DNA from: Acutalibacteraceae bacterium
Lineage (GTDB): Bacteria; Bacillota; Clostridia; Oscillospirales; Acutalibacteraceae
Direction: 5' to 3'
DNA length: 24,424 nt
NCBI GenBank assembly: GCA_051894015.1
Contig: JBJFHV010000527.1
Span: forward strand, 1-24,424
Shown: positions 1,534 through 20,757 of the stretch, in pieces
How the letters are laid out: every line of letters starts with the position of its first letter
How positions within the stretch are numbered: the first letter of the stretch is position 1
Program-made: the position numbers and the translations under genes
Notes under the pieces: model-generated
The model's database searches: none
What the model saw: the letters and a program-made list of their open reading frames with translations, nothing else
What the model was told of the DNA's origin: nothing

Positions 1534-2427
1534 TTATGCAAGAAGCTCGCCGTATTCCTTTTCTTTGTCCGCAATCACATTACCCTTTGTGAGATTGAGT
1601 CTGAGTGTCGTTTTGCTCTTCATAAAGTCAAGTGTCATAAAATCGCCGGCAATGATATTGGCGCTTTCAAGATAAAATTCATTTTCTCCGATCCGCTTCA
1701 TCAGCCCCGGAAAATAATTCCGCATATCGAGATCAAGCTTTCTTGGCGTTGTCAGTCCGATTTCGGTTCCCGGATTCGGCGTCTGCTGTGTCTGGAACCA
1801 GTAAAGACCGTCGGTCTGCTCTTCGTCGAAGAATTTCAGGGCAACCGCAGCGTAGTTTTTCGCTTTCATGCCGTTACGGGTCTTATCCCAAGGGAAGATC
1901 TGATCACAGCTCCGGCTGTATTTGTAATCCTCGTTTTCGTTGATGAGAATATATCGCTTGCCTGCCTTGCGGATATCGCCGAGCGTAACCTCACTGATCT
2001 TATCGAAGTCATGGTAAGCGTATTTTTCCGGTTCAAGATATTTTTCGAGAAGGGCATCGACCTGCTTCGGATCTGCGCTGTACCGCAGTGTGACCGGCCC
2101 GAAATTCTGGGGATAGTACTCTCTGATATCAAGAAAAAGTATTTCCGACGGATTTTCGTCAAGGGCGCGCCGGATATCCTTGAGCGCGTTTTCGAACAGA
2201 TCGCCTTTTGTAATTCCGTGGGCAAGGTGAATTCTGCCCTTTTTATCCGTGTCCAGCCGCAGACAAAACTGACGGATGCCGTATAGAATCTGAACGTACA
2301 AATTATCGTCCTGACAGCACGCCATAGCATTCATGCCGTAGCTTCCGGCGTTGTGCGAACCGGGAATGACAAGCTTCGTGATTTTTACATCGTCTTTGAT
2401 ATAAGACATCCAATTTGAATAGATCAT
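1534..2427 (-). CDS. PI-PLC X-domain (phosphatidylinositol phospholipase C-like) phosphodiesterase, no signal peptide
   Basis: IPGSHNAG, QILYGIRQFCLRL and HLAHG match the PLC-X catalytic His motifs. RBS AAGGAG upstream. Confidence 0.8.
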   Translation of the reverse strand: MIYSNWMSYIKDDVKITKLVIPGSHNAGSYGMNAMACCQDDNLYVQILYGIRQFCLRLDTDKKGRIHLAHGITKGDLFENALKDIRRALDENPSEILFLDIREYYPQNFGPVTLRYSADPKQVDALLEKYLEPEKYAYHDFDKISEVTLGDIRKAGKRYILINENEDYKYSRSCDQIFPWDKTRNGMKAKNYAAVALKFFDEEQTDGLYWFQTQQTPNPGTEIGLTTPRKLDLDMRNYFPGLMKRIGENEFYLESANIIAGDFMTLDFMKSKTTLRLNLTKGNVIADKEKEYGELLA

Positions 2428-2467
2428 ACTTTTCTCCTTTTAGTTATAATTTCTTCGTATCGCTGTA

Positions 2468-2496
2468 ATTATAGTACACTGCCATTTATGTGTCAA
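2468..2496 (-). promoter_or_regulatory. sigmaA promoter for the PLC/MBL/PfkB operon
   Basis: Perfect TTGACA-N17-TATAAT on the minus strand. Confidence 0.85.
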
Positions 2497-2529
2497 CAAA
2501 ATTTAAGAGGTTTCGCAAATCTTATGCGG

Positions 2530-2876
2530 GTCGCAAGGCGACTCCAATGCCGGGGGTCGCGTGGCGACTCCAATCCCGGGGTGCATGGTGCTTGATTGAA
2601 AGCTGAGTGCCCGAGCCGTGAGTTGAGCGATCGCGTGGCGACGCCAATGCCGGGGTAGGCAGTACTGATTTTGAGCTAACAGCCCGAGCCGTGAGTTAGG
2701 CAGTAATTTTCAGTTTTAGTTGCAAGGCGACACCAATGGCCGGAATACATAGAGCTTGATTAAAAGCTGAGTACCCGAGCCGGGAACTGAGCGGTCGCGT
2801 GGCGACTTCAATGCCGGGGTAGGCAGTGCTTGATTTGAGCTAACAGCCCGAGCCGGGAACTGAGCGGTAATTTTTT
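2530..2876 (+). repeat. Non-coding array of imperfect ~75 bp repeats with hairpins, arranged (partial)-A-B-A'-B'
   Basis: Units start at 2530, 2556, 2630, 2719 and 2794 with the hairpin GTCGC-(AAG/GTG)-GCGAC. The four full units share CAAT-GCCGGGG, GCTTGATT, AGCT and CCCGAGCCG-TGAGCG with some variation. B and B' end in GTAATTTT. Confidence 0.9.
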
Positions 2877-3003
2877 AATTTGTTTTCCTTAATTCAGATA
2901 CGCTTCTTATGAAAACGGCAGAGCAAACAGAGAGAATGAAACAAGCTTCAATGTACTCTGACAGGCAAAATTGCCGCTTGTCAAGACAAAAGAAATGTTT
3001 TTG

Positions 3004-3032
3004 TTGACAATATATATTTAATGTATTATAAT
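3004..3032 (+). promoter_or_regulatory. sigmaA promoter
   Basis: Perfect TTGACA-N17-TATAAT. Confidence 0.85.
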
Positions 3033-3107
3033 GGCTTCGGTAATAAAACGATGAAGATTTTCGTAAAGAATATAAGCTGAACCGACACCTACATAAAAAC
3101 CGATGAG

Positions 3108-3371
3108 ATGAAATGCTTAAAGCTGAAAGCCGGTGAATCCGCTTGTATTGAGGTGCAAAATACTGACAGCGTCGTGAAAGGTCTGATGACGGCGGCGGTG
3201 ACGCTCGTTTTGCTTACCGCCGTCACGCTCGGGACGGAAAAGCTTTTTGATAAGCTTCACAACAGGAGAAGAAAAAGAAATGGTCTTCCGGGTAGCAAAG
3301 AGCCGATCGGACTTGCACTGTGTCTTGACTCCGGGTATATTGACTGTATGTTCAAAAAGGCGGGATTTTAA
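3108..3371 (+). CDS. Possible small single-pass membrane protein (87 aa)
   Basis: Hydrophobic stretch followed by RRRKR. It fills the gap between the promoter and the next gene, and its stop abuts the next RBS. It has no clear RBS of its own. Confidence 0.4.
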   Translation: MKCLKLKAGESACIEVQNTDSVVKGLMTAAVTLVLLTAVTLGTEKLFDKLHNRRRKRNGLPGSKEPIGLALCLDSGYIDCMFKKAGF

Positions 3372-3381
3372 AGGAGGGCTT

Positions 3382-4122
3382 ATGGAAAACGAAATCAAAA
3401 AGACAAAAGTCACATCGGTGGTTTTGTTGGTCCTTGTCAGTATTCTACCGATTATCATCTATATGCTTGTCCCGAACTCACCGTTTACTTGTGTCTTTGT
3501 TTCGGTGTACACGGTAGCGGCATTTGCAACGGCTTATCTTTCGACGATGAAAAAAGGCTCAATTGCGTTGAATCCTCTGAATCTGCCTGCCGTCGGGGCA
3601 AATATTGTCTGTATTGCGCACGGCGGATATGCGCAGGTCTGCACCGACAACGATCTTGACAAGCTGATCGGACTTGCTGCCTGCGGCTTGCTTTTTTGTA
3701 TCGGTTTGGTTGTCAATCACTTCAGAAAAAATAAAGATATTTCGAAGCCGTACCATAAATTGCTTCTTTTGTTCTTCTGTCTTCTCACAGTCAGTTCGTG
3801 CGTGTCTTTCATAAACATCGCCTTTGATAACAGCGAACCGATTACGGTTAAAACGCAGGTGGTACAGCACCGTGCGTATAGTGTCTCATACGAGCTTGTT
3901 GTCACTTCGGACGAAAAGGCATACAATGCCGATTTGTCCGTGCAGACACTTAATGTCAACAAAAAAGCCCATGAATACTATGAAGATGGTGATACGGTTT
4001 CGGTCAGCGTGAAAAAAGGCGCCCTTGGCATCAGCTACTGCCGTTTTATTCCGGAGGACTATACAGGTGAGAGTGTATGGGAAAAATACAGCGGTCCGTT
4101 CGGAAGATTCGGACACGATTAA
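3382..4122 (+). CDS. Hypothetical multi-pass membrane protein, paralog 1
   Basis: AAGGAGG RBS before ATG 3382 (MENEIKK). About 5 hydrophobic segments and a C-terminal soluble GDTVSVSVKKGALG domain. Confidence 0.8.
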   Translation: MENEIKKTKVTSVVLLVLVSILPIIIYMLVPNSPFTCVFVSVYTVAAFATAYLSTMKKGSIALNPLNLPAVGANIVCIAHGGYAQVCTDNDLDKLIGLAACGLLFCIGLVVNHFRKNKDISKPYHKLLLLFFCLLTVSSCVSFINIAFDNSEPITVKTQVVQHRAYSVSYELVVTSDEKAYNADLSVQTLNVNKKAHEYYEDGDTVSVSVKKGALGISYCRFIPEDYTGESVWEKYSGPFGRFGHD

Positions 4123-4136
4123 TAAAAGGAGTTCTC

Positions 4137-4856
4137 ATGGAAACACAAGTCAAAAAATCAAAATTCAAAACGGTTGTTTTGCCGGTTCTGATAAGCTTTC
4201 TGCCGCTTTTCGTCTATATGCTTTTTCTGAACACACCGTTTGCCGCCGTCTTTGTTACGGTGTACACGTTGGCGGCGTTTGCGGTGGCTTTTCTTTCAAC
4301 GGTGAAAAAGGGGAATCTGATTACCAATCCGTTCAACCTGCCGGCAGTCGGTGCGCTGATTGCGTGTGCTTCTCACCTTCTGTATGCGGAATTGTGTATA
4401 AGCCGATTCTGGGTTCTCGGCATTTTCGTGTTTTACGTTCTGTGGGCCGTTATGACAATCGGTGTCAATATTCTCGACCGCGGCAAGGCGATGTCGGGCC
4501 TTTTTCATAAACTTATTATCCTGCTTGCGTTCTTTTTCGCTGTGGGTTGTTGTACTTTTTTGATCAATACCGCCTTTGACAAAAGCGAACCGATAACGGT
4601 TGAGGCACAAATCATCAGAATGAAGATGGAACGCACAAGAGATTTTGCCCGTTTTCTTGTTTCATCGGACGAGAGACCGTACGGCGCTTCGCTGAGCTCG
4701 CTGATCGTAAGCGTGAGCGAACAGGCGTATGAAGATTTTGAAGAGGGCGACACGGTTTCGGTCAGCGTGAAAAAGGGCGCGCTCGGTATCCGGTACTGCC
4801 GCTTTGTTGAAGACGGCTATACGGGCGAGAGTATATGGGAAGCGATGTATGAATAA
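4137..4856 (+). CDS. Hypothetical multi-pass membrane protein, paralog 2
   Basis: AAGGAG RBS before ATG 4137 (METQVKK). Clearly homologous to 3382-4122 (NxPF, NPxNLPAVGA, INxAFDxSEPITV, GDTVSVSVKKGALGI). Confidence 0.8.
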   Translation: METQVKKSKFKTVVLPVLISFLPLFVYMLFLNTPFAAVFVTVYTLAAFAVAFLSTVKKGNLITNPFNLPAVGALIACASHLLYAELCISRFWVLGIFVFYVLWAVMTIGVNILDRGKAMSGLFHKLIILLAFFFAVGCCTFLINTAFDKSEPITVEAQIIRMKMERTRDFARFLVSSDERPYGASLSSLIVSVSEQAYEDFEEGDTVSVSVKKGALGIRYCRFVEDGYTGESIWEAMYE

Positions 4857-4879
4857 TATAACACCTGATGACGACAATT

Positions 4880-4915
4880 AAAAAGCGACACTCTTGTTAC
4901 AAAGTGTCGCTTTTT
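4880..4915. terminator. Bidirectional intrinsic terminator
   Basis: AAAAGCGACACT...AGTGTCGCTTTT between convergent genes. Confidence 0.85.
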
Positions 4916-20581: not shown

Positions 20582-20721
20582 CATCGGGCAGTGTGACTGC
20601 TTTAGCGAAATGGCAAAGCGAACACAGCGACGAATCATTAGAATTTGCAAACTTCCTGTCTTAGAAAAGCCGACTTTGCGGGGAGAGACTTTCCGACGGT
20701 ACAGTGTAAACCCGCGACCGT

Positions 20722-20749
20722 CACTATTCACTATTCATTATTCATTATT
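20722..20749 (+). repeat. 4 x 7-bp tandem repeat CA(C/T)TATT
   Basis: cactatt cactatt cattatt cattatt. Confidence 0.85.
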
Positions 20750-20757
20750 TTATATCC

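What the first reader, a model, noticed from the sequence alone, without database searches (positions are those of the whole stretch)
2530..2876. Higher-order A/B array of ~75-nt structured non-coding repeats between divergent promoters
Seen: one truncated and four full units (starts 2530, 2556, 2630, 2719, 2794) forming two A-B dimers with a 163-164 bp period, each dimer ending in a T-rich GTAATTTT tail. Every unit opens with the hairpin GTCGC-NNG-GCGAC. A, A' and B' carry a second hairpin GCTT-GATT..-(A/G)AGC. Substitutions keep pairing as G-U only on the plus strand (GTTGC/GCGAC, GCTT/GAGC). The middle of each unit tracks A or B type, while the 3' motif tracks the dimer (GCCGTGAGTT in A and B, GCCGGGAACT in A' and B'). 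The array lies upstream of both flanking sigmaA promoters, so it is in neither 5' UTR. I cannot match it to a riboswitch, CRISPR or REP family. Inference: an undescribed multimeric structured RNA (tandem aptamer, ribozyme or processed sRNA array) or a ssDNA/protein-binding element evolving by duplication and conversion.
Basis: partly seen in the sequence, partly recalled or inferred. Interest (0 to 1): 0.75.

Follow-up and report, generated by a model that had tools for sequence, protein, structure and literature searches.

The report
Dispersed modular intergenic repeat array
The "structured RNA array" is real as sequence, but it is one locus of an apparently undescribed non-coding repeat family present in more than 100 copies in this gut bacterium and three sister species, so it is an ordinary REP/BIME/BOX-like kind of element and not a dedicated RNA gene.

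Summary
Window 2529-2881 carries one 26-nt head-only unit and four long units (74, 89, 75, 88 nt). They form two A-B dimers with a 164-nt period, between two perfect divergent sigma-70-type promoters.

The head motif (a GTCGC-N3-GCGAC palindrome followed by CCAAT and CCGGG) occurs about 104-108 times in this 2.45-Mb, 557-contig MAG, against 0-4 for a reversed control. Many copies sit at contig ends. It occurs 53-87 times in each of three sister MAGs. It was not found in the other 113 species of the genus, about 400 genomes of the family, phages, plasmids or viral contigs.

Copies are intergenic, lie in both orientations and are built from modules. No Rfam family matches. RNAalifold finds no consensus fold, and folding z-scores are ordinary. 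Only the 5-bp head palindrome covaries, with no strand-specific G-U bias.

No RAYT, reverse transcriptase, TnpB or multi-copy transposase is linked to the family.

Verdict: a new, clade-restricted family of a known kind, a REP/BIME/BOX-like mosaic intergenic repeat. This array grew by local duplication and conversion. The agent that spreads it is unknown.

The parts
2529..2555 (+). Head-only unit (26-27 nt): the GTCGC-AAG-GCGAC palindrome followed by TCCAATGCCGGGG. It is a 3'-truncated copy of the family unit.
   Evidence: family D2. Spacings of about 25 nt are the commonest class in the family (26 cases).
2556..2629 (+). Unit A (74 nt): head, the common 'A' middle and the GCCCGAGCC block, cut after GAGCG and joined directly to the next head.
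   Evidence: The 73-76-nt spacing class occurs only at this locus (2 of 2 cases).
2630..2718 (+). Unit B (89 nt): a full unit with the rarer 'B' middle and the T-rich tail GTAATTTTCAGTTTTA (2703-2718). This tail is a variant of the family junction motif AAATTTNAGTTT.
2719..2793 (+). Unit A' (75 nt): the most diverged head (GTTGC..GCGAC, one G.T pair), an A-type middle and the second-dimer 3' motif.
2794..2881 (+). Unit B' (88 nt): a full unit with a B-type middle and a degenerate tail (2867-2881).
2468..2496 (-). Consensus sigma-70-type promoter (TTGACA-17-TATAAT) of the left gene (1534-2427, minus strand). It is conserved in sister genomes that lack the array.
3004..3032 (+). Consensus sigma-70-type promoter of the right-hand transcription unit. 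The array ends 122 nt upstream of its -35 hexamer.
1534..2427 (-). Left flanking gene (297 aa, no Pfam hit). It was used as the anchor for the orthologous-site test.

Best explanation
The array is one locus, and the largest one assembled, of a clade-restricted family of non-coding modular intergenic repeats that act at the DNA level.

Shown: the family unit is about 88 nt. It consists of a 13-nt head palindrome (GTCGC-N3-GCGAC), CCAAT and CCGGGG, a variable middle, a conserved GCCCGAGCC block, and an A/T-rich junction motif (AAATTTNAGTTT). Units are strung head to tail without spacers. Shorter units are 3'-truncated copies that always restart at the head. The family is old: copies sit at orthologous sites in sister species.

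Inferred: individual loci are remodelled quickly. At this locus an A-B pair (a 75-nt truncated unit plus a full unit) was duplicated as a 164-nt block, and the 3' segments were then homogenised within each dimer by conversion. The head palindrome is the likely recognition element, either as a hairpin in single-stranded DNA or as a symmetric duplex site, for whatever protein spreads or maintains the family. That protein is not identified.

Because the array lies upstream of both flanking promoters, it is probably not transcribed here. At most it has incidental effects on the two promoters.
For: Copy number: blastn of the array finds 51 matches on other contigs. The head pattern occurs 108 times against 4 for the reversed control, and 104 against 0 with a stricter pattern. 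61 of 143 heads lie within 300 nt of a contig end.

Independent samples: in pig-gut and digester metagenome contigs the unit region has 20-40 times the depth of its flanks.

Distribution: only 4 of 117 genomes of the genus carry the family. It was not found in about 400 other genomes of the family. A scan of all GTDB species representatives finds three other MAGs, with 85, 87 and 53 heads.

Modular grammar: head-to-head spacings fall into four classes, 23-27 (26 cases), 61-65 (19), 73-76 (2) and 86-92 (16). The order junction motif, head, GCCCGAGCC block, junction motif is seen in the sister genomes.

Location: 142 of 147 arrays lie outside long ORFs. Relative to flanking genes the counts are convergent 19, co-directional 9, divergent 8 and antisense 7.

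Remodelling at this locus: the closest sister genome (flanking protein 96% identical) has only one degenerate head at the same spot, and another sister has none.

Age: repeats flank the release-factor-like and MnmG-like genes at the same places in two species, and the same rare GTCGT head variant is retained. Nearest-neighbour identity within the genome (0.875) is about the same as between genomes (0.864).

Head covariation: GTCGC/GCGAC occurs 70 times, GTCGT/ACGAC 22 times and the mixed form only 2 times.
Against: No mobilising enzyme was found, so 'mobile element' is inferred from copy number and distribution, not shown. No empty-site versus filled-site pair with a clean insertion signature or target-site duplication was recovered. 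The conserved blocks partly reflect how I selected copies. Transcription could not be tested (no RNA run was listed), so an RNA-level role at other loci, as for REP or BOX elements in mRNAs, is not excluded. The host assembly is only 84.6% complete and breaks at these repeats, so array sizes and partner genes may be missing.
Confidence: 0.82

Rival explanations
1. A dedicated multimeric structured RNA encoded at this locus (tandem aptamer, ribozyme or processed sRNA array).
For: The head hairpin covaries. There are regular units of 75-89 nt. No known family explains the sequence.
Against: More than 100 dispersed copies lie in both orientations with no bias relative to genes. RNAalifold gives no consensus structure on the plus strand and -2.9 kcal/mol on the minus strand. 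Folding z-scores are -0.65 and -1.69. The units do not share a fold. No promoter reads into the array. G.T and A.C mismatches are balanced. The array is absent or a relic at the orthologous site in sister species.
Confidence: 0.04
2. A true REP/REPIN system: the heads are REP hairpins bound and cut as single-stranded DNA by a RAYT-type Y1 (HUH) transposase, which also builds the arrays.
For: The repeats are high-copy intergenic palindromes with a compensatory stem change. They persist vertically at orthologous sites as REPINs do (bioRxiv 10.1101/2021.07.10.451892). One 175-aa Y1_Tnp-like gene with HUH and Tyr motifs exists in this genome.
Against: That gene is not flanked by heads. No Y1_Tnp was detected in two of the four carriers, including the 97%-complete one. 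Distant homologues occur in 27 of 60 same-genus genomes searched, one of them a carrier at E 3.5e-6. There is no GTAG or CGTC tag. Head-to-tail arrays dominate, whereas such dimers are negligible in REP families (PMC3733652).
Confidence: 0.1
3. An operator or nucleoid-protein array: the five GTCGC-N3-GCGAC palindromes are duplex binding sites for a dimeric protein that controls the two divergent promoters. The genome-wide copies would be further sites of a global regulator.
For: Symmetric covariation is also what a dimer binding site would show. The array sits exactly between two divergent consensus promoters.
Against: Sites occur in all intergenic contexts and most often between convergent genes. 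Each palindrome comes with about 75 nt of conserved non-palindromic sequence and shared junction motifs. Both promoters are conserved in sister genomes without the array.
Confidence: 0.06
4. Units are made by a polar copying process. Synthesis would start at the head end, abort at preferred points and jump back to the start, for example reverse-transcriptase template switching or hairpin-stalled replication. This would explain why every short unit is a 3' truncation.
For: All 63 close head-to-head intervals are 3'-truncated or full units that restart at the head, at a few fixed junctions. The 61-65 class always ends in GCCG (19 of 19). Still shorter 11-nt partial heads stack in front of first heads.
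Against: No RVT_1 or group II intron maturase domain was found in the genome. The GT/GGT microhomology fits the 25-nt and 75-nt junctions but not the 63-nt one. Composite units could simply have been propagated after single events.
Confidence: 0.05

Closest known systems
REP / BIME elements of Enterobacteria and Pseudomonas, including REPIN doublets with RAYT (PMC3116915, PMC3733652)
   Same: Hundreds of short non-coding intergenic copies per genome. A small covarying palindrome is the conserved core. Copies are clustered in mosaics with conserved linkers, enriched between convergent genes, restricted to a narrow clade and persistent at orthologous sites.
   Different: The palindrome is only 13 nt inside an 88-nt unit. 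There is no GTAG or CGTC tag. Arrays are head to tail with polar truncations. No flanked RAYT gene exists, and two carriers have no detectable Y1 gene. The host is a Firmicute of the Oscillospiraceae.
BOX elements of Streptococcus pneumoniae (boxA-boxB(n)-boxC; PMC3049150)
   Same: A Firmicute composite repeat built from modules. A tandem array of one module varies in number between loci and strains. No transposase is assigned. Proliferation is old and current turnover is slow.
   Different: No sequence relationship was tested or is expected. BOX elements have distinct terminal modules and a tightly folded predicted RNA, whereas this family shows no consensus fold. BOX elements are often co-transcribed, while this locus lies upstream of both promoters.
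Neisseria intergenic mosaic elements (NIME: repeat units bounded by dRS3). Named in PMC3049150 and PMC3733652; details are from my own knowledge.
   Same: Arrays of 50-150-nt non-coding modules of several kinds, joined by one short conserved junction sequence (here AAATTTNAGTTT).
   Different: dRS3 is a 20-bp inverted repeat used as a phage or IS integration site. Here the junction motif is a direct, non-palindromic A/T-rich 12-mer, and no integrating element is known.
MITEs (non-autonomous derivatives of IS elements)
   Same: Heads-outward inverted pairs enclose ORF-less composites of about 300, 520 and 850-1000 nt, with arms up to 264 nt. They are multi-copy and non-coding.
   Different: There is no variable target-site duplication. 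No autonomous IS shares the ends, and no multi-copy ORF exists in the assembly. Most copies are solo units or direct arrays, not TIR-bounded elements.

Membership tests
Any Rfam RNA family (riboswitch, ribozyme, sRNA, large ornate RNAs) | Covariance-model match at or near the gathering score | tested here: not met
   At the gathering threshold the only hit in the window is a tRNA. A permissive scan of 2400-3120 gave only chance snoRNA hits at E of 3 or more. Five other loci carrying the repeats gave nothing relevant.
REP (GTAG/CGTC super-families, PMC3733652) | A 20-40-bp imperfect palindrome carrying a terminal GTAG or CGTC tetranucleotide | tested here: not met
   The consensus of 90 units has a 13-nt palindrome, GTCGC-N3-GCGAC, with no GTAG. 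CGTC appears only on the reverse strand of the minority GTCGT..ACGAC variant.
REP/REPIN-RAYT system | A single-copy Y1 (HUH) transposase gene flanked by inverted REPs and co-distributed with them | tested here: not met
   The one Y1_Tnp gene (contig 41) has no heads beside it. No Y1_Tnp was found in carriers G061 and G062. Homologues are scattered across same-genus genomes that mostly lack the repeat.
REP/BIME-like dispersed repeats (broad kind) | High copy number, intergenic location, both orientations, restriction to a clade | tested here: met
MITE | Terminal inverted repeats, a target-site duplication and a related autonomous IS | tested here: inconclusive
   Inverted composites exist. The flanking 12-mer is constant rather than site-specific. 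No transposase-bearing relative or multi-copy ORF was found in an 84.6%-complete MAG.
BOX element | boxA and boxC terminal modules around tandem boxB, with sequence similarity to the pneumococcal models | not tested
   No BOX models or sequences were available in the tools. Only the architectural analogy is claimed (PMC3049150).
CRISPR array | Identical short repeats separated by unique spacers of similar length | tested here: not met
   Units abut directly with no spacers and diverge by 10-30%.
Type III toxin-antitoxin RNA (ToxI-like) array | A promoter-driven tandem repeat immediately upstream of its toxin gene, present as a single locus | tested here: not met
   No promoter reads into the array, and the right-hand gene has its own promoter downstream of it. 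There are more than 100 dispersed copies.

The most novel reading that the evidence does not exclude
The family could be a mosaic 'non-coding cassette' system of a kind not yet described. Several unrelated modules (this unit and at least four others) are all joined through the same 12-nt motif, AAATTTNAGTTT. The unit itself is copied in a polar way from its hairpin end, giving nested 11-, 25-, 63-, 75- and 88-nt versions. This would point to an unidentified site-specific or hairpin-primed enzyme, neither RAYT nor a known transposase. The copies would be kept by selection at orthologous sites across species.
Probability: 0.1. Interest if true: 0.6.

Novelty: new member of a known kind. Interest (0 to 1): 0.28.

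Why it matters
It removes a false candidate for a new structured RNA. It also documents an uncatalogued repeat family of pig-gut and digester Oscillospiraceae that breaks short-read assemblies: 61 of 143 heads lie at contig ends of this MAG. The family marks rearrangement breakpoints and could serve as a strain-typing or assembly-QC marker. Such Firmicute repeat families have no known mobilising enzyme. The polar truncation pattern and the shared junction motif give concrete handles for finding one.

Tried and rejected
- Rfam at the gathering and permissive thresholds on the window and on five other repeat loci: nothing.
- RNA-seq: no RNA run was listed for the locus. DNA contigs of four metagenome runs gave only depth and junction information.
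- Partner enzymes in the own genome: the group II intron maturase domain, the TnpB zinc-ribbon domain and RVT_1 were all absent. Y1_Tnp is present once but unlinked. Self-blast of all ORFs found no multi-copy ORF.
- Group II intron reading: a second repeat module ends in GTGCGAC on the reverse strand. I rejected an intron 5' end because there is no Rfam intron hit, no maturase, and the element is too short.
- Integron attC reading: rejected by inspecting the sequence. The unit ends are not complementary, and the tail-to-head junction (GTTTGTC) does not fit the GTTRRRY core.
- A uniform 'G|GT microhomology' model for the truncation junctions fits the 25-nt and 75-nt classes but fails for the 63-nt class.
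- The automated empty-site test using flanks of sister-genome loci was mostly uninformative. The MAG breaks at the repeats and the flanks carry other repeats: 15 of 17 cases were split.
- Phage, plasmid, viral-contig and JGI metagenome searches found nothing except one 2-kb metagenome contig.
- A literature search for the head sequence returned no papers.

Full report
**1. What is in the window**

Region 2529-2881 contains five in-register copies of a 27-nt head, starting at 2529, 2555, 2629, 2718 and 2793. Each head is a GTCGC-N3-GCGAC palindrome followed by N-CCAAT-S-CCGGGG. A 135-nt segment is repeated at a 164-nt period with 83% identity.

Cutting at the heads gives units of 26, 74, 89, 75 and 88 nt. 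The middle third of each unit tracks an A or B type (A-A' 0.81, B-B' 0.93). The 3' third tracks the dimer (A-B 0.86, A'-B' 0.90).

The array sits between two perfect TTGACA-17-TATAAT promoters that fire away from it.

**2. It is not a single-locus feature**

- blastn of the array against the window's own assembly gave 51 matches on dozens of contigs. The assembly is 2.45 Mb in 557 contigs and 84.6% complete.
- The head pattern occurs 108 times against 4 for the reversed control. A stricter 25-nt pattern occurs 104 times against 0.
- 61 of 143 heads lie within 300 nt of a contig end, so the family is a main reason why this MAG is fragmented.
- In contigs of independent pig-gut and digester metagenomes, the unit region has 20-40 times the depth of its unique flanks.

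**3. Distribution**

- The family is found in only 4 of the 117 species genomes of the genus.
- It is not found in about 400 genomes from 185 genera of the family, nor in 24 other families of the order.
- An exact-pattern scan of all GTDB species representatives finds the same three sister MAGs. These are labelled Oscillospiraceae or Clostridia and come from gut samples. They hold 85, 87 and 53 heads.
- There is nothing in phage, plasmid or viral collections, and one 2-kb contig in JGI metagenomes.
- A full-text search for the head sequence found no paper.

**4. Anatomy of the family**

Ninety distinct full units align to an 88-nt consensus. In order it has the head palindrome, CCAAT, CCGGGG, a variable middle, GCCCGAGCC, a semi-conserved stretch and the tail TAAATTTTAGTTT.

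Head-to-head spacings fall into four classes:

| Spacing (nt) | Cases |
|---|---|
| 23-27 | 26 |
| 61-65 | 19 |
| 73-76 | 2 |
| 86-92 | 16 |

Every short unit is a 3'-truncated copy that restarts at a head. The 61-65 class always ends in GCCG. Still shorter 11-nt partial heads stack in front of first heads. The 73-76 class occurs only in this window. This argues that the A-B pair was duplicated here as one 164-nt block.

The 12-mer AAATTTNAGTTT is also the junction between this unit and at least three other repeat modules. Heads-outward inverted pairs enclose ORF-less composites of about 300, 520 and 850-1000 nt, with arms up to 264 nt.

**5. RNA or DNA**

- No Rfam family matches.
- RNAalifold on the 90 units returns no structure on the plus strand and -2.9 kcal/mol on the minus strand.
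- The whole array folds no better than shuffles: z is -0.65 on the plus strand and -1.69 on the minus strand.
- As single-stranded DNA the units share only the head hairpin, at -4.5 kcal/mol.
- The head does covary: GTCGC/GCGAC 70 times, GTCGT/ACGAC 22 times and the mixed form 2 times. The intermediates show no strand preference, with 19 G.T against 14 A.C. The covariation therefore fits a DNA hairpin or a symmetric duplex site as well as an RNA.
- Arrays are intergenic (142 of 147). Relative to neighbouring genes the counts are convergent 19, co-directional 9, divergent 8 and antisense 7.
- No RNA run was listed, so transcription remains untested.

**6. Dynamics**

At the orthologous site in the closest sister genome, where the flanking protein is 96% identical, only one degenerate head remains next to the conserved promoter. 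A second sister genome has none.

The right-hand gene has units in the opposite orientation upstream in one sister genome. In another it has none, only a terminator. The two flanking genes are arranged differently in the closest relative. The array therefore marks a rearrangement breakpoint.

Elsewhere, repeats flank the same housekeeping genes at the same positions in two species and keep the same rare head variant. Further flanks also abut repeats in the sister genomes. Nearest-neighbour identity is the same within genomes (0.875) as between them (0.864), and no identical copies exist.

The family therefore predates the split of the four species. It shows no recent burst and no concerted evolution, and it is reshaped locally.

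**7. Who moves it**

- One 175-aa HUH/Tyr Y1_Tnp protein exists in this genome, but no heads flank it.
- Two of the four carriers, including the 97%-complete one, have no detectable Y1_Tnp.
- No reverse transcriptase, group II maturase, TnpB domain or multi-copy ORF was found.
- The mobilising or maintaining protein is therefore unknown. Any statement about mechanism beyond local duplication and conversion is inference.

**8. Comparison with known systems**

The family behaves like REP/BIME, BOX and NIME elements (PMC3116915, PMC3733652, PMC3049150). It fails the tested defining features of REP: palindrome size, the GTAG or CGTC tag, a flanked RAYT gene and the predominance of inverted dimers. 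I therefore file it only under the broad kind of dispersed mosaic intergenic repeats.

Earlier notes of this scan describe several comparable, apparently undescribed repeat families in gut Clostridia. They are context only, not evidence.

**9. Verdict**

- The structured-RNA reading is not supported.
- The array is a locus of a new member of a known kind of element.
- Interest is modest. The points worth following are the polar truncation series, the shared junction motif and the absence of any candidate transposase.

Noticed in passing
window 20638-20751: A second dispersed repeat, with up to 11 matches elsewhere in the genome, lies just upstream of the split tRNA-Arg region. On the reverse strand it reads as an (AATGAATA)-like run followed by GTGGTCGCGGG. 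In a sister genome the same kind of module sits directly after family units (L110, about 330-400). It is probably another module of the same mosaic system.
   Followed up: partly
L021 (own genome, contig 15: 13900-15400) and 29 other places: Repeat module 'R2' has about 30 copies. It usually follows the unit tail and most contigs break inside it. It is non-coding and continues into two alternative sequence types. It has no Rfam match.
   Followed up: partly
L036:188-1136 (sister MAG JALEYA01): An ORF-less foldback composite of about 950 nt. A unit plus other modules form 264-nt inverted arms (89% complementary) around a 348-nt centre. Similar composites of 840-1000 nt recur in three genomes.
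   Followed up: partly
L024:417-506 (own genome, contig 218): A near-perfect 90-nt hairpin (CCCCTCTGTCA...TGACAGAGGGG type, with an inner TCTCCCC...GGGGAGA hairpin) is often attached to the unit tail. It picked up only spurious microRNA-model hits. It may be a terminator-like hairpin with a nested insertion.
   Followed up: no
window 1534-4900 compared with G062 contig 187: The genes left and right of the array are divergent neighbours here. In the closest sister genome they are about 1.9 kb apart in the same orientation, with another gene between them. An inversion or rearrangement breakpoint therefore coincides with the repeat array.
   Followed up: partly
window 3108-4856: Right of the array, three overlapping ORFs in different frames (3108-3371, 3247-4122, 4077-4856) have no Pfam hit. 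The DNA is conserved at 76-82% identity in the sister genomes. The gene model is unclear: these may be small membrane proteins or a frameshifted gene.
   Followed up: no
L026:1276-1803 (own genome, contig 41): A stand-alone 175-aa IS200/RAYT-like Y1 protein with HUH and YRDH motifs abuts the stop codon of the upstream gene. It has no flanking repeats. Homologues at 47% identity or less are scattered through the genus.
   Followed up: yes
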